The notes: generated by a model from the sequence alone, not told the origin. Counted from the stretch's first letter, positions 2,191 to 56,476 are shown. The stretch is DNA of 64,000 nt from Squalus acanthias (GCA_030390025.1 CM059437.1:66588001-66652000); one strand, 5' to 3'. Translations and numbers: made by a program.

Positions 2191-3747
2191 CATAAGAACA
2201 TTAGAAATAGGAGCAGGAGTAGGCCATTCGGCCCTTCGAGCCTACTCCACCATTCAATGAGATCATGGCTGATCTTCTGCCTCAACTCCATTCACCGGCC
2301 CTATCGCCATATCCCTTGATGCCCTTACTAGTCAGAAATCTATCGACTTCTGTTTTGAATATACCCAATGACTGAGCCTCCACAGCCCTCTGGGGCAGAG
2401 AATTCCAAAGAATCACCACCCTCTGTGTGAAGAAATTTCTTCTCATCTCAGTTCTGAATGGCCTACCCTTTATCCTGAGGCTGTGGCCCCTGGTTCTAGA
2501 CTCCCCAGCCAAGGGAAACATTCTCCCAGCATCCACCCTATCAAGCCCTGTAATAATTTTGTATGCTTCAATGAGATCCCCTCTCATTCTTCTGAATTCA
2601 AGAGAATACAGGCCTAGTTTACTTAATCTCTTCTCATACGACAGTCCCGCCATCCCAGGAATCAATCTCGTGAACCTTTGTTGCACTCCCTCTATGGCAA
2701 GTATATCCTTCCTTAGGTAAGGAGACCAAAATTGTACACAGTACTCCAGGTGTGGTCTCACCAAGGCCCTATATAATTGGAGTAAGACTTCTTTACTCAT
2801 GTACTCAAATCCTATTGTGATGAAGACCAGCATACCATTTGCCTTCCAAATGGCTTGCTGCACCTGCACATTCACTTTCAGTAACTCATGTACAAGGACA
2901 CCCAGTACCCTTTGAGCATCTGCATTCCCCAATCTTTCATCATTTAGGAAATACTCTGCCTTTCTGTTTTTTCTACCAAAGTGGATAACTTCACATTTAT
3001 CCACATTATATTCCATTTGCCATGTTCTCGCCCACTCACTGAGCCTGTCGAGATCCCCTTGAAGCCTCTTCACATCCTCTTCACAACTGACACTGCCACC
3101 TAGCTTTTTATCATCAGCAAATTTGGAAATATTACATTTAGTCCCCTCATCCAAATCATTGATATAGATTGTGAATAGCTGGGGCCCATGCGCCGATCCT
3201 TGCGGTACCCCACTAGTCACAGCCTGCCATCCTGAAAAAGACCTGTTTCTCCCTACTCTTTGTTTTCTGTCTGTTAACCAATTCTCAATCCATGCTAGTA
3301 TCTTACCCCCAATTCCATGTGCCCTAATTTTGTTCACCAACCTCTTGTGTGGGACCTTATCGAAGGCCTTCTAAAAATCCAAATACACCACATCTACCGT
3401 TCCCCTTTGTCTACTCCACTAGTTACATCCTCAAAGAACTCCAATAGGGTTTGTTAAACAGGATTTCCCTTTCATAAATCCATGTTGACTTTGCCCAATC
3501 TTACTATTAGTTTCTAAGTGTCCAGTTATTGCATCCTTTATAATAGATTCCAGCATTTTCCCAAATACTGATGTGAGGCTAACAGGTCTGTAGTTCCCTG
3601 TTTTCTCTCTCCATCCTTTGTTAAATAGCAGGGTTACTTTGCTATCCTCCAATCTGCAGGAACCGTTCCAGAATCTATAGAATTTTGGAAGATGACAACC
3701 AATGCATCCACTATCCCAATGGCCACCTCTTTCAAAACCCTAGGATG
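2191..3747 (-). mobile_element. 5'-truncated CR1-clade LINE, 3' part (RT C-terminus and tail)
   Basis: ORF 2282-3340 has GVPQGS, FADD, RPHLEYCVQFWSP; CR1 tail ...ctcctatttctaatgttcttatg on the minus strand; disrupted frames upstream. Confidence 0.92.
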
Positions 3748-3918
3748 CGAGCCAGCACTGAGTGCAAGTCAGCAGAGAGTGCTGAGTTTGGGTAAGTGTG
3801 AGTAGTTCTTTAATTGTTAGTTCTCTTTAAATCATTCTTGATAAGAGTACTTAAGCAGTTTAAGTGAAGGGGAAAAGTTAACTATTTGGGATTCTGTTGG
3901 TTTAAGAAGAGTAAAACA

Positions 3919-4501
3919 CGCGGGAGTCTTCCCTTGTTCTATTGGGGACTTGGCCTGGAGGGTGTTGCACGGAGCAGTCCCGTGCAATAGGTTGATAAGT
4001 AGGTTTACGGACTCCCAGGCCGCTTGCCATTTCTGCGGCCTAGAGGAGTCCGTTTTTCACGTATATATAGAGTGTGAGAGGTTGCAGCCCCTCTTTCATT
4101 ACCTGAAGGGGCTGCTCCTCAATTTCTGGTTGCACTTCAGCCCCACGCTCCTGATCTACGGTCACCCAGTGCGGAGGGGAGCGGGCAGGTCGGAGGACCC
4201 CCTCGTGGGACTGCTCCTGGGCCTGGCTAAGAAAGCCATTAATTGGTCCAGGCAGCGGGCGGTCGAGGGGGTCGTTCGGCCCGATTGCCTGCCTCTCTTC
4301 CGCGGCCATGTTCGCGCCCGGGTGGCCCTGGAGATGGAGCACGCGGTGTCCGCCGGCACGCTTGAGTTTTTCCGCGACCGGTGGGCGCCGCGGGGGCTGG
4401 AGTGCATCGTCACCCCGGACTACCAAATTTTAATTTGATTTGTTAAGTTTCCTTTAAAGTTTTATTCAGTTACAGATAATTGATTGGTTTGATCAAAATA
4501 G
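3919..4501 (+). mobile_element. 5'-truncated Tx1/L1-clade LINE 3' end with 16-bp TSD
   Basis: Open frame DLAWRVLHG...CHFCGLEESVFHVYIEC (CCHC zinc motif typical of L1/Tx1 ORF2 C-termini); flanked by taagaagagtaaaaca at 3903-3918 and 4502-4517. Confidence 0.88.
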
Positions 4502-4896: not shown

Positions 4897-5850
4897 ATGG
4901 AGCAGGTGATGTGTTGCTGTTGCGAGATGTGGGAGCCGGTGGACCCCATTGAGGCTCACGGTGATTACATCTGTGACAAGTGTCTGCTGTTACAGGAACC
5001 CCAGCTCCGTGTTGATGAGCTGGAGTCTGAGCTTCAGACACTGTGACACATCAGGGAGGGGGAGAAGTACCTGGACTTTGTGTTTCAGGAGGTGGTCACA
5101 CCGATGAAGTTAATTAATTCAGATGTAGCCCATGGTCAGGGACAGGACGGTGTGACTACGAGTGAGGCAGGTACGGGGATCCAGGAGGTAGTGTTGGAGG
5201 AGCCGCAGCCCTTGCTCTTGTCCAACAGGTTCGAGGTTCTTACTCCCTGTGGGGACGGGAGCAGGGACTGCAGGGAGGATGAGCAACCTGGCCACAGCAC
5301 CGTGGAACGGGTGGCCATTCAAGAGGGGGGAGTAAATAGAAATGTTGAAGTGGTAGGGGATAGTATTATTAGGGGGATAGATAGAGTTCTCTGCAGCTGA
5401 GAGCAAGAGTCCCGTAGGCTGTGTTGCCTGCCCGGTGCCAGGGTTAAGGACATCTCCTCTGGGCTGGAAAGAAACTTGCAGTGGGAGGGGGTGGATCCAG
5501 TTGTCGTGGTCCATGTTGGTACAAACGACGTAGATAGGACAAGGAAGCCGGTTCTGTTAAAGGAGTATGAGCAGCTAGGGGTCAAACTAAAAAACAGAAC
5601 CTCAAGGGTAATAATCTCTGGATTATTACCTGAGCCACGAGTGAATTTGGCTAGGACAAATAAAATTAGAGAGTTAAATGAGTGGCTCAAAGACTGGTGT
5701 GGGAGAAATGGGTTTTGCTTCCTGGGACACTGGCACCAGTACTGGGGCAGGAGGGAGCTGTACCGTTGGGACGGGCTTCACTTGGCCAGTGCTGGGACTA
5801 GAGTCCTGGTGGATCATATAACTAGGGCTGTAGAGAGTGCTTTAAACTAA
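4897..5850 (+). pseudogene. CR1 ORF1 (Cys finger, leucine zipper, SGNH esterase), two premature stops
   Basis: One frame from ATG 4897: MEQVMCCCCEMW..CDKC..LRVDELESELQTL*, then GDSIIR, VHVGTND, DGLH. TGA at 5044 and 5398, both consistent with CGA>TGA CpG decay. Confidence 0.9.
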
Positions 5851-5853
5851 CTA

Positions 5854-8841
5854 GTGGGGGGGGAGGTTCCTAGAGAGCAAATAATAAAAATGACAACAGA
5901 GAGGGTCATAGACTTAGGTAGCAGTGGGGAAATTAAAAACCAGAGTGTGTCAGGAAGGGGCAGAAGGTATGGAGTAAAAGGTAAAGTAATAGAAAGGGCA
6001 AAAGCAGGAACTAAGTGTCACAAAACATATTTGAAAGTTCTCTATCTGAATGCACGTAGCATTCGTAACAAAATAGACGAGTTAATGGCACAAATAATTA
6101 CATATGGGTATGATCTTGTGGCCATTACAAAAACATGGCTGCAGGGTGACAATGCCTGGGAATTAAACATACCAGATTATTTAACGATCAGGAAGGACAG
6201 GCAGGAAGGAAGGGGAGGTGGGGTGGCTATGTTAATAAAGGAAGGAATCACTGTAATACAGAGAAATGATATTGGGTCAAAAGATCAGGATAATGAAACA
6301 GTTTGGGTGGAGATAAGGAATAATAAGGGGAAAAAAACACTAGTGGGTGTAGTCTATAGGCCTCTGAATAGTTGCAACTCTGTTGGACGGAGTATCAATC
6401 AGGAAATAGTTGAGGCTTGTAATAAGGGAACATCTATAATTATGGGGGATTTTAACTATCATGTTAATTGGACAAATCAAATTGGGCAGGGCTGCCTTGA
6501 GGATGAGTTCATTGAGTGTATTAGGGATGGGTTTCTTGAGCAGTATGTAACTGAACCGACCAGGGGGCAAGCAACCTTAGATCTGGTCCTGTGAAACGAG
6601 ACAGGATTAATTAAAAATGTCCTAGTAAAGGATCCCCTTGGAATGAGTGACCATAACATGGTTGAATTCCATATTTAATTAGAGGGTGAGAAGGTTGGAT
6701 CTCAAACAAGCGTGCTAAGCTTGAATAAAGGAGACTATGAAGGTATGCGAGCGGAATTTAGTAGAGTGGATTGGGAAAATAGATTAAAGGGTACGACGAT
6801 ACATGATCAGTGGTGTACATTTAAGGAGCTATTTTACAACTTCCAAAAAATATATATTCCACTGAGAAGAAAAGGGTGTAAAAGAAAAGACAGTCATCCG
6901 TGGCTAAGTGAAGAAATTAAGGATAGTATTCGACTAAAAACAAGGGGTTATAAGGTAGCCAAATCTAGTGGGAGGATAGAGGATTGGGAAAACTTTAAAA
7001 GACAGCAAAAAATAACAAAAAGATTGATTAAGAAAGGGAAGATAGATTATGAAAGTAAATTAGCAAAAAATATAAAAACAGATAGTAAGACTTTTTATAG
7101 TTATATAAAAAGAAAAAGGGTGGCTAAAGTAAATGTTGGTCCCTTAGAGGATGAGACCGGGAAATTAATGGTGGGAAATATGGAGATGGCAAATACACTG
7201 AATGAATATTTTGTATCAGTCTTTACAGTAGAGGACACTAAGAATATCCCAACACTGGACAAACAGGGGGCTATAGGGGGGGAGGAGCTAAACACAATCA
7301 AAATCACTAAGGAAGTGGTACTCAGTAAAATAATGGGACTCAAGGCGGATAAATCACCTGCACCTGATGGCTTACATCCTAGGGTCTTGAGGGAAGTGGC
7401 GGTAGGGATTGTGGATGCATTGGTAATAATTTTCCAAAACTCCCTGGACTCAGCAAAGATCCCGGCAGGCTGGAAAACTGCTAATGTAACACCCTTATTT
7501 AAAAAGGGCAGTAGACAGAAGGCTGGAAACTATAGACCGGTTAGCCTAACATCTGTGGTAGGTAAAATTTTGGAGTCCATTATTAAGGAGACAGTAACGG
7601 GACATTTGGATAATCATATTTTAATAGGACAAAGTCAGCATGGTTTTATGAAGGGGAAGTCATGTTTGACAAATTTGCTGGCGTTCTTTGAGGAAGTAAC
7701 ACATAGGGTGGATAAAGGGGAACCAGTGGATGTGGTGTATTTAGACTTCCAAAAGGCATTTGACAAGGTGCCACACAAAAGATTATTGCTTAAGATAAAA
7801 AATCACGGGATTGGGGGTAATATTCTGGCATGGATAGAGGATTGGCTATCTAACAAAAGGCAGAGAGTTGGGATAAATGGTTCATTCTCAGACTGGCAAT
7901 CAGCAACTAGTGGTGTTCCACAGGTGTCAGTGCTGGGTCCCCAACACTTTACAATCTATATTAACGATTTGGAGGAGGGGACCGAGTGTAACATATCAAA
8001 GTTTGCAGATGATACTAAGATGGGAGGGAAAGTAGTGAGTGAGGAGGACATAAAACATCTGCAAGGGGACATAGACAGGCTAAGTAAGTGGGCAGAGATT
8101 TGGCAGATGGAATACAATACTGGAAAGTGTGAGGTTATGCACTTTGGCAGGAAAAATAGTAGAGCAAGTTATTATCTAAATGGCAAGAAACTGGAAAGTA
8201 CTGAAGTACAAAGGGATCTGGGGGTCCTGGTGCACGAAACTCAAAAGGTTAGTATGCAGGTGCAGCAAGTGATTAAGAAGGCCAATGGAATGTTGGCTTT
8301 CATTGCTAAGGGGATAGAATATAAAAATAGGGAGGTATTGCTTCAGTTGTACAAGGTATTGGTGAGACCGCACCTGGAATACTGCATACAGTTTTGGTGT
8401 CCATACTTAAGAAAAGACATACTTGCTCTCGTGTCAGTACAAAGAAGGTTCACTCGGTTAATCCCAGGGATGAGGGGATGGACATATGAGGAGAGGTTGG
8501 GTAGATTGGGACTCTACTCATTGGAGTTCAGAAGAATGAGAGGCAATCTTATTGAAACATATAAGATTGTGAAGGGGTTGGATCGGGTGGATGCGGGGAG
8601 GATGTTCCCGATGATGGGTGAAACTAGAACTAGGGGGCATAGTCTTAGAATAAGGGGCTGCTCTTTCAAAACTGAGATGAGAAGGAACTACTTCACTCCG
8701 AGGGTGGTAGGTCCATGGAATATGCTGCCCCAAAAAGCTGTAGAAGCTACATCATTACATAAATTTAAAACAGAAATAGACAGTTTCCTAGAAGTAAAGG
8801 GAATTAAGGGTTACGGGGAGCGGGCAGGAATTTGGACATGA
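5854..8841 (+). pseudogene. CR1 ORF2 (APE endonuclease plus reverse transcriptase), two premature stops
   Basis: YLNARS, MGDFN, SDH (endonuclease); YRPVSLTS, LDFQKAFDKVPH, FADD (RT). Stops at 6592 (TGA) and 6676 (TAA) in the same frame; motif substitutions ITKTW and GVPQVS. Confidence 0.93.
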
Positions 8842-9068
8842 GTCTAGGTTCGGATCGGTCATGGCCCTGTGGGTAGCGGAGCGGGCCCAGGGGCCGTGTA
8901 GCCTGATCCTGCTCCTATTTCGTGTGTCCAATTATGTTAGGTTCAGGAGATGGTTCTGTGATAGTAGATTGGCGGTTAGGATCAGATCAGCCATGATGTT
9001 ATTGAATGGCGGAGCAGGCTCGAGGGGCCAATTGGCCTACTCCTGCTCCTATTTCTTATGTTCTTATG

Positions 9069-9346
9069 TAGGTCATCCGGTCCTTGGGATTTATCAACTT
9101 TTAGTTCCATTAATTTTGCTAGTACTGTTTTTTTACTAATAATAATTTCTTTAAGTTCCTCATTCTCGCTACACCCTCGGTTTTCTCGTATTTCTGGGAG
9201 GTTTTTTGTGTCTTCCTCCGTGAAGACAGAAACAAAGTATTTATTTAATTTCTCTGCCATTTCCTCATTCCCCATTATAAATTCTCCCACTTCTGACTGT
9301 AAAGGATCTACATTTACCTTCGCCAGTCTTTTCCTTTTCACATACC
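9069..9346 (-). mobile_element. Continuation (5' part) of the minus-strand CR1
   Basis: Minus ORF KRKRLAKVNV...LKVDKSQGPDDLH runs directly into the piece ending at 3747. Confidence 0.9.
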
Positions 9347-9575
9347 TGTCCTGTCCAATATTTCTCCCTCAAGCAACATCACTAAAAAAAACAGATTATC
9401 TGGTTATTATCACATTGCAGTTTGTGGGAGCTTGGTGTGTGCAATTTGGCTGCCATGTTTCCCACATTACAACAGTGACTACATTTCAAAAAGTACTTCA
9501 TTGGCTGCAAAGTGCTTTGGGGTGTCCTGAGGTCAGGGAAGGTGCTATATAAATCAAAGTCTTTCTTTTTTTCTT
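9347..9575 (+). mobile_element. SacSINE1-like DeuSINE, 3' half
   Basis: Resumes where 2190 stops (tgtc|ctgtccaata) relative to the intact copy; ends gctatataaatcaaagtctttcttt. Confidence 0.85.
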
Positions 9576-47499: not shown

Positions 47500-48747
47500 A
47501 ATAAACCCAGGAAGTAAAATGAAACGTCGTTAGATCGCAAGCTACAACGGCGGAGACTGGCGGTGGTCAGAGCGACTTTCTCGCCAGGATATACTCACAG
47601 ATCAGGGAGGCGATATTTTCGTTTTTAAAAAAAAACGAAAAGTGATACGAGACGCTAGTTACAACTCGACGTCAGCAGCCTGGCGCCAAGCGCCCTTAAA
47701 CATGTGCGTCAAAAATGCAATGTTACAAGAGCTAATCACTTTAGATGTTCCGCTCCTATCTCCGTGCATTTAGCCGATGTGATTGCTTTTCAGTTCTAAC
47801 TTTTTTTTCCCCAGCGGCTTTCAGAGAGAGAGAGAAAAGCAGCGTCCTTATACTTGAAGCTGCAGCAGCCCATTAGGCGCCATGTCCTGATAATTAAATC
47901 ACCTCGTTAAATGAGGCGCTTTTTTTTTTGGGGGGGGGGGGGGGTGGTTGTTGAAAGCATCGCCAAGCAACAAAATAAAATGAAGACGCTGGACATCTCA
48001 CGGCTCTGCCTTTTTTTTGTAACAAATTAAAGTGCAGAGATCGCTATCTGCTGCAAGGGCCCGGGGAAAGGACAAGACAAGGGAACAAACAGACACAAAA
48101 TCAGCAGGAATAAAAATGAATGCTAATCGCCCAGACTGGCATTTTAAGGCGGCGGCGGATTAGTGTGAAGGGAGGAGTGATGTTTCGGAGATTGCATATA
48201 ACGGCGAGAATGGGGCAGAAGGGGCCGTCTGGCTGAGACCCCGGTTTGCCTGTAGACAGACAGATGATTCTTCGCCCGATTTCCTGGTAGTCGATGGTGG
48301 GTAAAGCCACCTGAGGCGGCCCCGCGCCTTGCCATTGGCTGCTCCCCACCACCCGCCCCCCCCCCCCCCCCCTCTAATGATGTTGACATATTCACACGGC
48401 TGAAGTAGTGATGCTGGCTGTACGTTACAGTTTCCGACACCTTCTTTTTATAACTCATCTATCCCCGGCTTTAGTTGTTAAAACCACGCCTATGGAGCCA
48501 CACAATTGGTCCGAAAGCGTCAAATAGCCAATCAACAGGGCTCAGCTATTCGCAACACGCACACTACACACACACACACACACACATACAGAAAGATCGG
48601 AGTTGACTGTTTGGGGAGATGCGTCTCGGCTCTGCCACCGCCAACCAGTCTTACTTTCTGTTTATGTGAAGAAGAAAATAATAATAATAAATAATGATGA
48701 TGATGATGTGCCTGTAAGCGACCGTCCGACAGAGATCTGGGGAGTGG
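47500..48747 (+). promoter_or_regulatory. TBX3: TBX3 promoter / 5' UTR region, CpG-rich
   Basis: CpG-dense; inverted CCAAT (ATTGG) near 48334 and at 48505, CCAAT at 48528, G/C runs, (CA)n. TSS not determinable. Confidence 0.6.
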
Positions 48748-49139
48748 ATGAATTTACCGATGAGAGAGCCAGTTATTCCGGGGACAAGTATGGCTTATCA
48801 TCCGTTCTTACCTCACCGGGCACCGGACTTTGCGATGAGTGCTGTGTTGGGACATCAGCCTGCTTTCTTCCCGACTCTCGCCCTGCCTCCGACCGGCGCG
48901 GCTGCTCTAACACTCCCGGGCGCGCTTAGCAAGCCCATTATGGATCAGCTTGTCGGCGCAGCTGAGGCTGGGATCGCTTTATCGTCAATGGGCCACCAGC
49001 CCTCGCATCTGAGGCCTCTTAAGACTCTGGAGCCCGAAGAAGAAGTGGAAGACGACCCAAAAGTTATACTCGAAGCGAAAGATTTGTGGGATCAGTTTCA
49101 CAAGCGTGGCACTGAAATGGTTATCACCAAATCTGGAAG
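48748..49139 (+). CDS. TBX3: TBX3 coding exon 1 (N-terminus, start of T-box)
   Basis: ATG at 48748; translation ends [19 protein letters not shown]; donor AG|GTACAG at 49140. Confidence 0.96.
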
Positions 49140-50292
49140 GTACAGCGCATTTTTCCATCCAAGAGACGAGTGCCAGCCTCTCTGGTTGGAGATCATACGA
49201 GTTATTTTAATACCCAGCCGTGGTTAGTTGTGACACAGGATAAAATATCATATATTTTTAGTGCAATGTAGGATTTAAAACATGCAAAATAGATTTGATT
49301 GAGAAAAGCGGTCATTTGTATTCGGGTGTAATCTGCCAAGGGCTTTTACAGCACTTAGACTAAAAAATGCTTCCTGCATAATGATCCATTTTGGTGATAC
49401 AGTTTGTCTCGGCAGCTAGCTTTACGATATATGAAGTCATTTATTTATTGGAATAGCATAGCCAGTCTCCGAACCCTTTAGCCTGCACCTTTGTTTAGGC
49501 GATGAGACAATCCAGATCGTCAGACTAATAAGGGCACAACCTCGAACAAATATTTAATTTTAATAAATGCTAATGAAATTAATTGAAATAGGTTCTTGCT
49601 TGTGCTAGGGAAGGTCACATGTGATCTGCAGAGAGCCGGTTGATGAATCTGACTTGCCGAAGTTTAATTTATCCATTCATTTGATCTGAGCAATAACAGT
49701 AATGAATCAGCGGCCGCCTTGTAAATAATGTGCACCGGTATTGCACGATTAAAGCTCCAGATCAGTGCGTAGATTCCAAAGGGGGAATTGCAATTTCTCT
49801 TTGGGGGAAAGGGTATGGTAGAGTATTTCCACGACACCTGTGATGGTAACATTTTAACTCACGCACAGTTTTTTTATGGCACCAATTGGTGATTATAAAA
49901 CCATAAACTTTGAGTTAGCCGCGGCCTTACCCAGGTAGCAAACGCACATATACCTTGGGCAGGGTTATTGAATCATGTATATAATCAGTCATACCAGAAA
50001 TATTGAAATCTATATCCCTAGGTAGAATCTACTCACTAGCTTCTTCTTGCACCATTTATAAAGAGCAGAATTTTGTATATGTAAACTTTAAAACACATTT
50101 GACAAGGCATCTAAAGAACTCGGTTGCTGTTTTGCAATGGTTTTATAAAATAGCATTACTGAAATGTGTTGTCTCAAATATTTCACAGTAGTAAATACCT
50201 GTGAGTCAAGGTCCCAGTCTCAAAAATACTATAGAAATCTTAACTCTTTATTTTACTTTCATGAGGATTACATTACTGACAGATTAATGTAA

Positions 50293-50616
<324 letters not shown>

Positions 50617-51672
50617 TAATCTTTAATAATTTGTTCGAGTGATTTATAAACAAATAGTAACCGATGAGTGATATGTATTTACTTAGCAGTAAAGTGCTAA
50701 AATATTTTCCGCATTCGGAGTTAAAAAATTTTTTCGCACTAACTTGTGCTGGCATGGAGGGCTGTACAGGGTTTTGCTTTTTGTATTTTTTCTGCATATC
50801 ATGAATTTGTGTTCTTATAACCTGGGGTATTGTGTAGATCGGCCATTTTAGGTATCTGGGATTGCAAGTATTTGATCATTAGGATCATATTTGACAATTT
50901 TCTATGGAACTGAAAAGTGATAAGGCTTAGTCACATGCCAACTTTCTCTCCCCATTTTCAGTTTATAAATCTCGGTGTAATGGACAATGATCTGTAGTGC
51001 GAAATATTTTAAAACTAACATACTTTGCCAAATCTGCAATGTATTAATGCATTATGCTCGCTGGAGAGAAAAAAAAGTATCCAGCCACTGTAATAACAAT
51101 GACGATAGCAGTAGCTCCGTAGTCAGTGCATTTCAATGTGACGTTCAGAAAACAGTACACTAGACAAGTCGAAATTGTTTATGCTTGTATACTAGTCACT
51201 TAGTATTTAACACATAGCATTCTCAATTATTATAGTGCATGTCAGTATTGTTTGTGAATTGTGGTGGCGGTTTATATATATATTATAGAGAGATACAGAT
51301 ATCTATATATATATGTAGATATATATAATATATTTCTAAATCATATAGTCTTATTTTTGCAAGCCCCCAAACAGTGGGGGAGGCCATAATGCAGAGGTTA
51401 CCCCGCCGTCAGCTGTTCATGTGGAAAGACGGATTTACACTCCCGCTGAACTCTGTCCCCTCCTGTAAAATCTTTTTGACTGTCTATTAGTTTACATTAT
51501 TCTTGATCAACCATTAACAAGCAGTGTGCGATTAATCAGTAAAACGATATTATACTAAATTTGGCAGCAGCAGAATCGAGGATTAGCCTGGCTGAATCCA
51601 GAGCAGTCACAGCATGTTGTACAGTTCCATGCGCTCTGGGCGAATTGTGATTGTTTAATTTATTCTCTTTAG

Positions 51673-51819
51673 ACTATTTTGAATTCCATGCACAAGTATC
51701 AACCTAGATTTCACATTGTTCGTGCGAACGACATTTTGAAACTTCCTTATAGTACTTTCCGGACATACGTGTTCCCTGAAACAGAATTCATAGCCGTCAC
51801 TGCATACCAAAATGATAAG
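51673..51819 (+). CDS. TBX3: TBX3 coding exon 3 (T-box)
   Basis: Acceptor ttctctttag|; [49 protein letters not shown]; donor |GTGAGT. Confidence 0.97.
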
Positions 51820-53377
51820 GTGAGTCAAAAAATGAAAGTTGGTAATTTGTGCAGAAAGGTAGTGTTGCTTGTTATATAGAATGTCGATTTGCCTTGTGAG
51901 ACGTTGTAGCTATTGTACCAAAAAGGTAAAAACGCGACGCCTTAGTCTGTATCCCAATTGTTTATTCTGGTCAATACGACTTTCAGTGTTAGATACCGGA
52001 GTCTCATTAAATGCACAAGAACGCTTGTTGAATATTCTGCGCAGACTGGGGCTGATTGCGATTTTATGCTTTGTTTTGTGATATCGGTGTTAGCATGGGT
52101 TGAGTTGTGTGGCAGCAGACACAACGCTCTCCTGTATGCATATGTTTGTCTGGGCCGTGCGTTCAGATAAATTTTGCACTGCGAGGTAATAGGATTTAAT
52201 AGATTTCTAAACTGTTATTAAATTACAGTCATTTAAAAACAAATGAGACTTTTCGCACTGTTTATAGGTGGTGCATGTTCTTGGATGAATCCGATAGAAA
52301 TTTAGGTCAAAGAGATTTGGAGTAGTGTCCTCAGTACAGGTATCAAGCCTGCGATGATGAACAATTAATGTTAATAAGTTCACCCAAATCGTGTTTAAGG
52401 AACTTGGAACTCTTCTGTTGGTATTTAACTTCTCATCACACTTCTAGCTAGTCAGCTAACATTATTAATAAGAATTACAGTGAAGTACACTGTGTGTAGT
52501 GACTTGATAATACTTGATCACCGCACTGTTGATTATGGGGAGTTTCATTTCAGAGGGAATAAAAGCTGATAACGAAAAGGGTGTTAACTTGATAAATGAG
52601 GCAACCTTAACAGAGTCGATGACTTGATTTTTTTTCTGGATTTGTGTTTCTTGTACTGCTGGGTTATTATCTTCAGTTCATTATTAAAAGGACAATGATT
52701 TCAATCTCGTTAGATTCTCTACCCTATTGAAATGAAGATGATAAGTGACAATAAAGTTACTGTTGACTTGTTGTCAACAGAGGGCAAGTTACGATGGTGA
52801 CGCTAGACTAGCTTCACCCTATCTCGCTGATAAAGTACCTACTTGTCTTGTGCTAGCTCACACGCAGGTTATCATGAATCGAACATGCTTTACTTTAGGG
52901 CAGATATGTGATTTGCTCCTTGCATTTTCACATTTAATAAAATAAAGACACCGCGTTAAATGCCTTAAAACTGAATTCAGGACCATAGTTTCCGCACTGA
53001 TATAATCTTACAGCATGGCTGTGTTCAGTGTTGGCCCAGCCTTCAATGGGACGAGTGCAGAATTAAAATGCAGGAAATGTTAGAGCCACAGATCAGGTGG
53101 AGACAGACAATGGGCTGTACCATTAAAATATTGGTACAACGTTACCATTGACTGTATATAATGCGGTGGCGGCTTTAACATAATTCGACATTTATTTATT
53201 TTTAAATAATAATCCGAAACAATAATGTAATGGTAAAGTAATGCTGCTGTCTAGTCTCTGCATTTCACCTGTAACTTCCAGCAGCATTCTTTAGAGCCTG
53301 CGCATTTTTAGTAAAGACGGTAATTGATGCTATATTGTATTACGGGAAAGTATCAAACCTATTATTTTGACATCTAG

Positions 53378-53454
53378 ATAACCCAGTTAAAAATCGACAA
53401 CAACCCATTCGCCAAAGGCTTTCGTGACACGGGGAATGGGAGAAGAGAGAAAAG
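53378..53454 (+). CDS. TBX3: TBX3 coding exon 4 (end of T-box, basic NLS-like segment); not in the ORF track
   Basis: Acceptor catctag|; ITQLKIDNNPFAKGFRDTGNGRREK-R; donor |GTGAGA. Confidence 0.97.
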
Positions 53455-53871
53455 GTGAGATTGATTCAATTCTGGTCTATTTGTCAATCGGTGGACTGTT
53501 GGGCCTCGTTATATTCATGATTTTAACAACAATCTGATGCAGAGCTGTCACCGTCTCAGTAACACAGAAAGAGAAAATGAGGGCTGCTTGTCGTGTGCTT
53601 GTTACATTTTGCGACAGACTTGTGTCTTTCATCTTATGTTTGACGTTTTTGCACTCTGTCATTTTCGCTGTTTTATTTTTAGAAAACGCGAAGGCGTTCT
53701 CTAAACATAAGGCATTCCCACCGAGTATTGCTGCATAAGGCACCACCTCATGAGCCAACACCAATAGAATGTGTTCGATTTCTCGGGTGAAATAAAACTG
53801 AAACGACATGGGCACTTATTTAGATAACGAATATCTTAAGGCATTGTCCCCCCTTTTTTTTCTTGGAACAG

Positions 53872-54035
53872 AAAGCAGTTGGCAATTCAATCGCTACGAG
53901 TCTACGAAGAACAGCAGAAGGGTTCGAAAGAAAATGGGACATCGGACGATTCATCCAGCGAGCAGCCCGCTTTCAAATGCTTCGGCCAGTCCGCGTCCCC
54001 CGCTGTTTCCACTCCAGGGACTGCGAACTTAAAAG
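53872..54035 (+). CDS. TBX3: TBX3 coding exon 5
   Basis: Acceptor ttttcttggaacag|; [37 protein letters not shown]...GTANLK; weak donor G|GTTATT whose phase fits exon 6. Confidence 0.9.
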
Positions 54036-54573
54036 GTTATTATTTTGTTGCCTACACAAGGGGCTTGTTTGTTCTTTTTTTATAAGGCGCGACTAAGTTT
54101 GTGTTTTTCTCGCACATTAATTGGGTGTATGTTTGTGTTGAAGATCCTTATCACTTCACAACCGAAGTAACCCCGGACAAGATGCAGCAAGCGCTTTTAC
54201 TTATTATTCCCCTGGAATAGAATTAGATCGTGAAAATCTATTGCCAGCCTTCTCCGCCTACTGGAGTTTTGTAGGGTTTAATTGTTTTAAACAGACTTAG
54301 AATTATTAATCTCCGTATTCAGTGAAATTGTATTTAACAAAACAGCAGTTTTTCATGATTTATTTTTAAAAAGGTGCAGAAATAAAACCCTAAAAAGACA
54401 GAATTTGGATTGGTCGCACCTGAATTGCCACTGCCTGTGTATTCAACAGTGTTGTGTCGTTGCATTCGGATTTATATCAGGAGTGAGCGCGCAATGTTAC
54501 TGACCGTATCGTTTGGGAAAATGCCACTATATTTTAGCTGGTCCTTCTACTTTTATTATTTTCTGTTTTCCAG

Positions 54574-55238
54574 GTGCTCTGCAAAGTGACGAAGAAGAAA
54601 GCGACATAGACAGTAAAGATGACCCCATTCAGGAAGGGAATGGCTCAGGAAAATTCTCCACAACCACCGAGGAACGAAAGGAGGAGCGCAATTCCACGAA
54701 ATCTCATCCACGCCCATCGGACTCTGTGAGCAGAATTAGGGAACATGAAAGCTCGAGAACTGATAAGAGCTCGACGGATTCGCAGCAGAGCCCGACAAAC
54801 ACTTCCTCAAGCACTAGAGCCGTTAATGGCGAGGGCCCCGAGATCAAAAGTCCAGTTCGAGACCATCACCAGAAAGCGGATGAGTCCAGTGTTTTAAACA
54901 AGGAGTCCTATTCGCCCCTAACAGTCCAGACGGATAGTATCTCACACCTGAACCACGGACATTTACAGAACCTCGCCTTTTCTCATAACTTATCTGGCCA
55001 GCACTTCTTTACCCCGCTGGGCGCAGGACATCCCCTTCTCTTGCACCCGAGCCAGTTTGCGATGGGTGGGGCCTTCCCAAATATGGCAGCAGGTATGGGT
55101 CACCTGCTGGCCTCCATGTCGGCCTCCGCAGGCGGGATCGGCGGCCTGGACGCCCTTGTTTCGTCACAGCAGGGACTACCTAGTGGATCAGCGGCAGGTC
55201 TACCGTTTCACCTCCAACAACATGTCCTGGCCTCTCAG
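54574..55238 (+). CDS. TBX3: TBX3 coding exon 6
   Basis: Acceptor ttctgttttccag|; contains SPLTVQTD, HPSQFAMGGAF, LPFHLQQHVLASQ; donor |GTAAAG. Confidence 0.94.
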
Positions 55239-56014
55239 GTAAAGCCCCAACCTCCTCGTCTTATTTGATCCTTTAACTATAAAGTTACATCTTTTGATAG
55301 GTGTATGACAAATGTATTTTAAATTCAGGTCTTGCTTTTTGTCAGTCTTTTTATGTTGGAAACCAGGCACACTGCTATCGGAGAGCAAAATTCAATTGGC
55401 AGCCTTGTGTAATAACCTGTAAAATATTGAGAGATTTTTGTATAAACAAGAACACATAAAATCTGTGACTTTCGTTTCTAAAGATACCCTGAGAATGATT
55501 TTAAACGACAGATAAATTGATACAGGATATATTACCTTAAAAGAAAAATAATACTTTCACTTACAATGCAAAATATAGATTAATTAAGATAAACTAATCC
55601 AACCAGCTGGGGAGAATCACACCCATATGTCTTTCATTCTATGTCACATTTCATATTTTTCTGGCTGTCTTTTTGAGCGACCTCTGTGGTTCGGTGTAGG
55701 AGAATAATGGAGATATAATTACAGACAGTCCTTTTTGTTGTTGTTAGAAACCCACCCAATTTAAACACCCCAAAAGTGTGTGCTTTTATAGAAGTTTTAA
55801 GTGTTCTACAGTGCCTAGCCGTCTCATTCTTTAATTTTTGTTGCATGTTGGTAAATCTGCACAAGCTACTGCATGAAATAGATATTATTTCAGTGTCTTG
55901 TCTGTAACATTCATTTATTGGTAAACGCGGGAATCCAGTCTGATCCATCCATTGCTATCGGTACTTAGCATTAGTTGTTAAGATATAAACTAACTTTTCT
56001 TGTTACATTGACAG

Positions 56015-56476
56015 GGTCTTGCGATGTCACCTTTTGGTAGCCTTTTCCCCTATCCTTACACGTACATGGCCGCTGCCGCCGCGGCCTCCATGCCCGGTGG
56101 AGTGCCATCATCCGTCGCCTCCTCTGTACATCGCCATCCGTTCCTCAGCGCAGTCCGGCCTCGCTTGAGGTATAGCCCTTACACGTTCCCCGTGCCCGGA
56201 ATGGACAGTAGCAGCTTGCTGACCGCCACCGTGCCGTCCATGTCCGCCCCAGGCGAGGCCAAGGTGAACAGCATGGCAGCCAGTCCCGTGTCGGCGGGCC
56301 TGGACTCGGGCTCTGAGGTGAACAGCAGGTCCTCGACTCTATCCTCGGGATCGGTCTCCCTGTCGCCGAAACAGTGTTCAGAGAAAGAAACGCCCAACGA
56401 GCTCCAGAACATCCAGCGCCTGGTCAGTGGACTAGAAACCAAACAAGATCGGTCAAGCAGGAGCGGTTCCCCGTGA
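56015..56476 (+). CDS. TBX3: TBX3 coding exon 7 (C-terminal region with poly-Ala, to stop)
   Basis: Acceptor ttgacag|; [25 protein letters not shown]...RPRLRYSPY...[13 protein letters not shown]; TGA ends at 56476. Confidence 0.96.

What the first reader, a model, noticed from the sequence alone, without database searches (positions are those of the whole stretch)
5839..5892. In-frame U_UUA_AAC slippery heptamer at the CR1 ORF1/ORF2 junction: candidate recoding signal
Seen: ORF1 ends gcT TTA AAC TAA CTA GTG GGG GGG GAG. TTTAAAC (5841-5847) is in the X_XXY_YYZ phase directly before the stop. In this copy ORF2 is in frame 0 and the -1 frame stops at TAG 5871. Removing one G from the G8 run (5856-5863) would put ORF2 in the -1 frame with no stop. 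The stop is also followed by CUAG, the context known for UGA readthrough. Known: UUUAAAC is the coronavirus -1 frameshift heptamer; LINE ORF2 is usually explained by reinitiation. Inference: active family members may make an ORF1-ORF2 fusion by frameshifting or readthrough. An in-frame ATG at 5890 leaves reinitiation open, and I see no convincing downstream pseudoknot.
Basis: partly seen in the sequence, partly recalled or inferred. Interest (0 to 1): 0.7.

Follow-up and report, generated by a model that had tools for sequence, protein, structure and literature searches.

The report
Ribosomal frameshift signal in CR1 LINEs
A family of jumping genes found from shark-like fishes to land vertebrates ends its first gene on a ribosome-slipping sequence kept almost letter for letter and starts its second gene one base back, so its copying enzyme is likely made as an extension of the first protein, as in retroviruses; this particular copy is broken and carries one extra G that hides the layout.

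Summary
Observation confirmed. The window copy is a dead CR1 LINE with one G too many: 80 of 100 listed family junctions have G7, which puts ORF2 in the -1 frame, open from the heptamer. Across 39 CR1 lineages the codon before Leu-Asn-stop ends in T 39/39 over six amino acids, and Leu is TTA 38/38, while a control Leu uses all six codons. In 22 lineages chosen for -1 phase, linkers of 105-285 nt hold 4 stops in -1 against 108 and 130 in the other frames, and 10 have no AUG before the endonuclease motif. Readthrough is refuted; AUG reinitiation cannot be general. No downstream structure is predicted; a G5 motif sits ten bases after the heptamer. Phase stays noisy or undecided in old families with unstable G-runs. 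Best reading: programmed -1 frameshift giving an ORF1-ORF2 fusion (0.8); translation untested. Nine literature searches found no report for CR1, but the 1997 CR1 papers were unavailable. The scan noted this signal twice before on other DNA.

The parts
4897..5850 (+). CR1 ORF1 (Cys-rich N-terminus, SGNH esterase), 317 codons, ends ...RALN-type Leu-Asn-stop; two internal stops in this copy
   Evidence: intact 317-aa version in sister copy L012
5841..5847 (+). Slippery heptamer T_TTA_AAC (X_XXY_YYZ phase), last bases of ORF1
   Evidence: TTTAAAC in 34 of 39 lineages, TTTAAAT 2, three single-copy variants
5848..5850 (+). ORF1 stop, directly after the heptamer
   Evidence: a stop directly follows in 33 of 39 lineages (TAG 16, TAA 15, TGA 2)
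5856..5863 (+). G-run: 8 G here, 7 in most family copies; its core at +11 to +15 after the heptamer (5858-5862) plus GG at +18/+19 is the conserved downstream motif, the candidate stimulator
   Evidence: G in 35, 34, 34, 33, 31 of 38 at +11..+15 and 33, 32 of 38 at +18, +19
5851..6048 (+). Basic linker between slip site and endonuclease; coding in the ORF2 frame from the heptamer on in G7 copies
5890..5892 (+). In-frame ATG of this family (codon 17 of the -1 frame); not a shared feature of CR1 lineages
5851..8841 (+). CR1 ORF2 (APE endonuclease with the YLNARS motif, Asn at 6049-6051; reverse transcriptase); two internal stops in this copy

Best explanation
Vertebrate CR1 LINEs end ORF1 on T_TTA_AAC directly before the stop and carry ORF2 in the -1 frame, open from that heptamer, so ORF2 is likely translated by programmed -1 ribosomal frameshifting as an ORF1-ORF2 fusion. 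Shown: heptamer, phase, open linker, absence of AUG in many lineages, G-rich motif at a fixed 10-nt spacing, no predicted local structure. [quoted passage not shown] More weakly inferred: the G-rich motif supplies the pause, most likely as a protein-binding site. The window copy gained one G in the run, probably at or after insertion, and has four further stops, so it does none of this.
For: (1) Family phase: 769 exact junctions; of the first 100 listed, run length 7 in 80, 8 in 11, 9 in 5, 6 in 2, 10 and 11 in 1 each; G7 equals -1 phase; copy L005 is open for all 603 codons held downstream of the heptamer. (2) Other families: 24 of 30 loci picked without fixing the codons are in -1 phase, 4 in frame 0, 1 in +1, 1 without endonuclease; five of them are open for all 503 codons held. 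8 of 11 vertebrate-type metagenome loci with a readable endonuclease start are in -1 (L131, L132, L135, L137, L141, L153, L154, L184; not L140, L143, L170). (3) Nucleotide-level constraint: third base of the codon before Leu is T in 39 of 39 lineages over Ala, Gly, Thr, His, Asp, Ile; terminal Leu TTA 38 of 38; control Leu of the esterase motif uses all six codons (TTA 4 of 39) and another control Leu none (0 of 33). Genome-wide only 215 of 15,927 Leu-Asn-stop ends have a non-T there, scattered as A, C and G over the same families in the 100 rows listed. 52 of 83 homologous proteins (sharks and rays, bony fish, turtles, lizards, frog) end in Leu-Asn, and in 51 of 52 the residue before can be encoded by NNT. 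(4) Linker coding from the slip site: 4 stops in -1 versus 108 and 130 in frames 0 and +1 over 1,332 codons in 22 lineages with linkers of 105-285 nt, also in the first halves. (5) No AUG before the endonuclease motif in 10 of these 22 and in 14 of 21 readable copies; AUG in the -1 frame within 30 nt of the stop in only 5 of 39. (6) RNA reads of a related organism cover the junction without a listed splice joint across it.
Against: No translation data: nothing here shows a fusion protein or a shift rate. No stimulatory RNA structure, a usual part of -1 signals: mean z 0.0, 0 of 32 with z below -2; a G-quadruplex is predicted in 11 of 32 only and not in this family; no shared long-range partner. 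Phase is noisy in old families: 42 -1, 27 frame 0, 27 +1, 4 unread among the 100 copies; majority alignments gave frame 0 for four of eight groups (F1, F5, F6, F7); larger samples put the modal length at -1 for F4 (19 of 31), F5 (mode 11 of 47; 18 of 47 in phase) and F7 (mode 29 of 100 and 9 of 24, but only 3 of 24 single copies in phase), and left F1 undecided (8 of 22); F2 is 6 of 14 per copy. The 22 lineages were chosen for being in -1 phase, so they test openness and AUG absence, not phase. AAC is not informative alone (a control Asn is AAC 24 of 24). Lineages are related and some are single decayed copies, so counts are not independent events; the loci were preselected for Leu-Asn-stop at the amino-acid level. 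Near-cognate start codons are present in every linker tested (3-8 each). In the RNA reads the missing G was called in only 319 of 1,150 and 564 of 1,613 reads.
Confidence: 0.8

Rival explanations
1. Termination followed by AUG-independent reinitiation, as proposed for L1 ORF2: ribosomes stop at the ORF1 stop and restart in the -1 frame at or near it; heptamer and G motif would steer that restart and ORF2p would be a separate protein.
For: L1 ORF2 is thought to use an unknown initiation independent of its AUG (PMC5009743, passage); ORF2 translation depends on ORF1 translation in L1 and SART1 (PMC2881922, passage). It fits the missing AUGs, the fixed phase and the lack of a pseudoknot. Near-cognate codons are present; the invariant CTA overlapping the stop could serve as a start.
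Against: Gives no reason for the exact X_XXY_YYZ pattern, above all the invariant T two codons before the stop (39 of 39) and TTA (38 of 38), which are what tandem tRNA slippage needs.
Confidence: 0.12
2. AUG stop-start coupling (SART1 UAAUG type or calicivirus TURBS type) or leaky scanning to an ATG such as 5890.
For: ATG at 5890 in this family; family F0 has TAATG overlapping its stop in the -1 frame; TGGGA lies within 81 nt upstream of the stop in 24 of 39 lineages; SART1 uses UAAUG (PMC3708506, passage).
Against: No AUG before the endonuclease motif in 10 of 22 lineages; an AUG near the stop in only 5 of 39; TGGGA absent in 15 of 39 and mostly part of the Trp-Asp codons; the linker upstream of any AUG is still kept open. 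At most an add-on in single families.
Confidence: 0.04
3. The motif is a DNA or RNA element unrelated to decoding (internal promoter, splice or packaging signal; TTTAAA palindrome plus a GC-box-like run), and the phase is inherited history.
For: The G motif is conserved at nucleotide level and unstructured; reads map in both orientations.
Against: Does not explain why linkers of 105-285 nt stay open in one frame right up to the heptamer or the missing AUGs; no splice joint across the junction is listed in two RNA runs (17 weaker joints not shown).
Confidence: 0.03
4. Stop-codon readthrough at UAA-CUAG into a frame-0 ORF2.
For: True of this copy's layout and of 11 of 100 family copies.
Against: Family state is G7 (80 of 100); CUAG not conserved; 21 of 22 linkers have further frame-0 stops; several families have two stops in a row.
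Confidence: 0.01

Closest known systems
Canonical -1 PRF signals of retroviruses, LTR retrotransposons and coronaviruses (U_UUA_AAC as the coronavirus heptamer is recalled; bipartite model from PMC7618472, passages)
   Same: X_XXY_YYZ heptamer in phase at the end of the upstream ORF, polymerase ORF in -1 and open from the slip site, structural-protein/enzyme layout.
   Different: No hairpin or pseudoknot 5-9 nt downstream is predicted; the stop follows the heptamer at once; the host element is a non-LTR retrotransposon.
PRRSV nsp2 -2/-1 PRF stimulated by nsp1beta/PCBP (PMC4937337 and PMC7618472, passages)
   Same: No obvious downstream structure; a short conserved low-complexity motif at a 10-nt spacer (wild-type spacer 10 nt in PRRSV; G5 starts at +11 here).
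   Different: Motif is G-rich, not C-rich; heptamer is of the -1 type; no binding protein is identified, so the likeness is geometric only.
Vertebrate canonical CR1 LINEs with esterase ORF1 (PMC13343379, PMC4316615, passages)
   Same: Esterase ORF1, APE endonuclease and RT ORF2; this element is an ordinary member.
   Different: Term searches in these two papers, in PMC3905857 and PMC2881922 found no 'frameshift'; the junction is treated as two separate ORFs.
ORF2 translation in L1 (AUG-independent reinitiation) and SART1 (UAAUG stop-start), and the HeT-A gag frameshift (PMC5009743, PMC2881922, PMC3708506, passages)
   Same: Bicistronic LINE RNA whose second ORF depends on translation of the first.
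   Different: Those give a separate ORF2p, or a shift inside gag; here the sequence predicts an ORF1-ORF2 fusion from a classical heptamer.

Membership tests
CR1 LINE (esterase type) | ORF1 with SGNH esterase | tested here: met
   Lipase_GDSL_2 E 4.9e-11; homologues in sharks, bony fish, turtles, lizards
CR1 LINE (esterase type) | ORF2 with APE endonuclease and RT | tested here: met
   Exo_endo_phos and RVT_1
CR1 LINE (esterase type) | RT phylogeny inside the CR1 clade | not tested
   No RT tree against named references was built; assignment rests on domain layout and protein hits
-1 programmed ribosomal frameshift signal | X_XXY_YYZ heptamer in the 0 frame | tested here: met
-1 programmed ribosomal frameshift signal | Downstream ORF in -1 frame, open from the slip site | tested here: met
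   Met for this family (80 of 100) and young families (24 of 30); noisy or undecided in old families; not met in the window copy itself
-1 programmed ribosomal frameshift signal | Heptamer conserved beyond amino-acid need | tested here: met
-1 programmed ribosomal frameshift signal | Stimulatory RNA structure 5-9 nt downstream | tested here: not met
   0 of 32 windows with z below -2; folding did not model pseudoknots explicitly; no shared distant partner. So not a member of the structure-stimulated class
-1 programmed ribosomal frameshift signal | Measured trans-frame product | not testable with these tools
   needs reporter, ribosome profiling or mass spectrometry
Protein-stimulated PRF (PRRSV type) | Conserved unstructured motif at 9-11 nt spacer | tested here: met
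   G5 at +11..+15; PRRSV spacing
Protein-stimulated PRF (PRRSV type) | A trans-acting protein binds the motif and is required | not testable with these tools
   no binding data
AUG stop-start reinitiation (SART1/TURBS) | AUG overlapping or close to the ORF1 stop | tested here: not met
   5 of 39 lineages; none before the endonuclease motif in 10 of 22
Stop-codon readthrough | Downstream ORF in frame 0 behind a single leaky stop | tested here: not met

The most novel reading that the evidence does not exclude
Vertebrate CR1 LINEs make a Gag-Pol-like ORF1-ORF2 fusion by a -1 frameshift that needs no RNA structure but a protein bound to a G-rich motif ten bases downstream (a host G-run binder or ORF1p itself): a protein-switched frameshift, the mirror image of the PRRSV C-rich signal, kept since the common ancestor of jawed vertebrates and open to host control.
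Probability: 0.3. Interest if true: 0.9.

Novelty: new variant of a known kind. Interest (0 to 1): 0.72.

Why it matters
How LINE ORF2 is translated is an open question (PMC3708506, PMC2881922, PMC5009743, passages). CR1 is the dominant retrotransposon group of most vertebrates (PMC13343379, start of abstract). If its RT is made as a frameshift fusion, then a LINE clade has converged on the retroviral Gag-Pol strategy, the esterase is tethered to the endonuclease-RT, annotated CR1 ORF2 starts are wrong, 'intact element' screens must ask for the -1 junction, and host anti-frameshift factors could restrict a LINE. The signal is about 30 nt long and directly testable in a reporter. It would also add a cellular-genome example of an apparently structure-free -1 signal.

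Tried and rejected
The 30 best DNA hits are biased to the query's G8 (12 frame 0, 11 -1, 5 +1, 2 unanchored), so an unbiased pattern count was used instead. An early idea that the heptamer persists when the stop is displaced by one codon (L071, L083, L099) was dropped: the larger sample shows TAG TAA directly after the heptamer in that family. The ATG right after the stop in family F7 (TAAATG) is in frame 0 and not in the ORF2 frame at modal lengths, though that call is weak. Local folding, G-quadruplex prediction and a long-range partner scan gave nothing shared; a partner near -48 to -50 recurs in several shark-type families at weak energies, untested against a control. Viral contigs held no relative. 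Esterase LINEs of non-vertebrate type among the metagenome loci (L145, L148, L151, L152, L160, L163, L168, L169, L174, L177, L180) lack the heptamer. A PDB sequence search with the endonuclease gave no hit at E 0.1, so the catalytic role of the Asn in YLNARS is recalled, not shown. The look-up of sequencing runs listed no holder on record as RNA; two raw RNA runs added by species label were laid. Six of 38 clusters (11, 13, 17, 19, 20, 22: frame-broken, deleted or redundant copies of families already represented) were dropped before the counts. Literature searches; five papers asked for by id were not held. No supplements were read.

Full report
1. Observation. ORF1 (4897-5850) encodes an SGNH esterase and ORF2 (5851-8841) an APE endonuclease and RT: an esterase-type CR1 LINE. 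The copy has two stops in each ORF and is dead. The genome is 3.7 Gb; the best named ORF1 hits are from rays and sharks.

2. The family state is G7, ORF2 in -1. The best DNA hits are about 97-98% identical and differ mainly in G-run length; G7 puts the endonuclease in the -1 frame with no stop from the heptamer on, G8 in frame 0, G9 in +1. A pattern that leaves the run free finds 769 junctions; of the first 100 listed, 80 have 7, 11 have 8, 5 have 9, 2 have 6, one each 10 and 11. L005 is open for all 603 codons held. The window copy is therefore a +1 G variant.

3. Other CR1 families in the genome. A pattern anchored only on the esterase motif WDGLHLN gave 5,370 hits; the first 100 were fetched. 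These are older: 42 copies in -1, 27 in frame 0, 27 in +1, 4 unread, with visibly expanded G-runs. Majority alignments gave an open -1 frame for F0, F2, F3, F4 and frame 0 for F1, F5, F6, F7. Larger samples moved F4 (19 of 31), F5 (mode, 18 of 47 in phase) and F7 (modal lengths; only 3 of 24 single copies) to -1 and left F1 undecided (8 of 22). A second pattern that excluded Trp before the motif and allowed any codons for x-Leu-Asn-stop gave 15,927 hits; all 100 listed show xxT TTA AA, and only 215 of 15,927 lack the first T. Of its first 30 loci, 24 are in -1 phase, 4 in frame 0, 1 in +1, 1 has no endonuclease.

4. Other vertebrates. 52 of 83 homologous proteins end in Leu-Asn; the residue before is A, T, Y, S, D, H, G, C, F (all possible with NNT) in 51 and E in one. 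A metagenome scan gave 68 loci. Vertebrate-type loci carry the same heptamer; 8 of 11 with a readable endonuclease start are in -1. L131 ends like unnamed and bony-fish proteins, L184 like turtle proteins; calling the others bird-like rests on recall. Esterase LINEs of other type lack the heptamer.

5. Constraint is on nucleotides. In 39 lineages (29 from this genome, 10 metagenome loci; 6 broken or redundant clusters dropped) the third base of the codon before Leu is T in 39 of 39 across six amino acids, Leu is TTA in 38 of 38, while the invariant Leu of the esterase motif uses six codons; Asn is AAC in 35 of 37, but so is a control Asn (24 of 24), so that base says nothing. Downstream, G is kept at +11 to +15 (31-35 of 38) and +18, +19 (33, 32 of 38), including two third-codon positions; the bases between vary. 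The lineages are related, so these are not independent events, but the control codons on the same set do vary.

6. The linker is coding from the slip site and often has no AUG. In 22 lineages in -1 phase (chosen for it) the linker is 105-285 nt long and has 4 stops in -1 against 108 and 130 in the other frames; 10 have no AUG before the endonuclease motif, as do 14 of 21 readable copies. That the Asn of this motif is catalytic is recalled (one search found no PDB hit). This excludes readthrough and AUG reinitiation as general mechanisms. Near-cognate codons exist in every linker, so non-AUG reinitiation stays open.

7. No structure. Windows of 80 nt behind the heptamer fold no better than shuffles (mean z 0.0; 0 of 32 below -2); a quadruplex is predicted in 11 of 32, not in this family; no common distant partner for the G motif was seen. 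Canonical signals have a structure 5-9 nt downstream (PMC7618472, passages). The PRRSV signal has none and uses a protein-bound C-rich motif at a 10-nt spacer (PMC4937337, passages), the same spacing as the G5 motif here. That likeness is a lead only.

8. RNA. Two RNA runs of a related organism cover the junction at depths of several hundred to over a thousand, in both orientations; the missing G is called in 319 of 1,150 and 564 of 1,613 reads; no splice joint across the junction is listed. This shows family transcripts, not translation.

9. Mechanism. Most likely tandem -1 slippage from U_UUA_AAC to UUU_AAA_C, bypassing the ORF1 stop and giving an ORF1-ORF2 fusion of about 1,310 residues beside free ORF1p (0.8). 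Shown: signal anatomy, phase, conservation. Inferred: slippage, fusion, ratio control. Speculative: protein stimulation at the G motif. Rivals: non-AUG reinitiation 0.12, AUG coupling 0.04, non-decoding element 0.03, readthrough 0.01.

10. What is known. Nine full-text searches returned no paper, judged from listings and abstracts, that reports frameshifting at the CR1 junction. Passages or term counts seen: PMC5009743 (first 300,000 characters; CR1 not named; HeT-A frameshift, L1 initiation), PMC11835228, PMC13343379, PMC4316615, PMC2881922, PMC3905857, PMC7618472, PMC4937337, PMC2734521, PMC3708506. Not held and so unread: Haas 1997, Kajikawa 1997, Kojima 2005, Alisch 2006, Kapitonov and Jurka 2003; the first two described the CR1 ORFs and may mention the overlap or the heptamer. 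Two earlier notes of this scan reach the same reading on other DNA; I looked after forming mine, and they are not independent evidence.

11. Verdict. A real, deeply conserved feature; the window copy is a broken example. A new variant of a known kind: a -1 frameshift signal in a LINE, apparently without RNA structure. Interest 0.72.

Noticed in passing
L202, L215 (G000:C1:228893-231976, 777177-780260): A family whose ORF1 end and first 17 linker codons are of the L201 type but whose remaining linker and endonuclease match the window family: an apparent ORF1 swap by recombination inside the linker that kept the -1 phase.
   Followed up: no
window 5856-5863 and family copies: G-run changes are biased to gains (18 longer, 2 shorter of 100) and old families show long G/T-rich expansions: about a fifth of this family's copies are out of phase at this one site, perhaps from RT slippage at insertion.
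   Followed up: partly
ORF1 codons 12-13 of the last 26 (window about 5803-5808): Leu at codon 13 is always CTN (33 of 33), and this TCCT-like stretch is among the top upstream partners of the downstream G motif in several shark-type families; weak energies, no control run.
   Followed up: partly
L180 (and L169): A non-vertebrate-type esterase LINE without the heptamer whose ORF2 also lies in the -1 frame, open across the ORF1 stop.
   Followed up: no
window 48718-56476 (+): Exons of a TBX2/3-type T-box gene (T-box and TBX2-3 repressor domain hits).
   Followed up: no
window 2282-3370 (-), 3845-4438 (+), 8982-9368 (-): Further LINE pieces around the element: a CR1 RT 3' part, a zf-RVT-bearing 3' end of another LINE type, and a short CR1 ORF2 fragment.
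   Followed up: no
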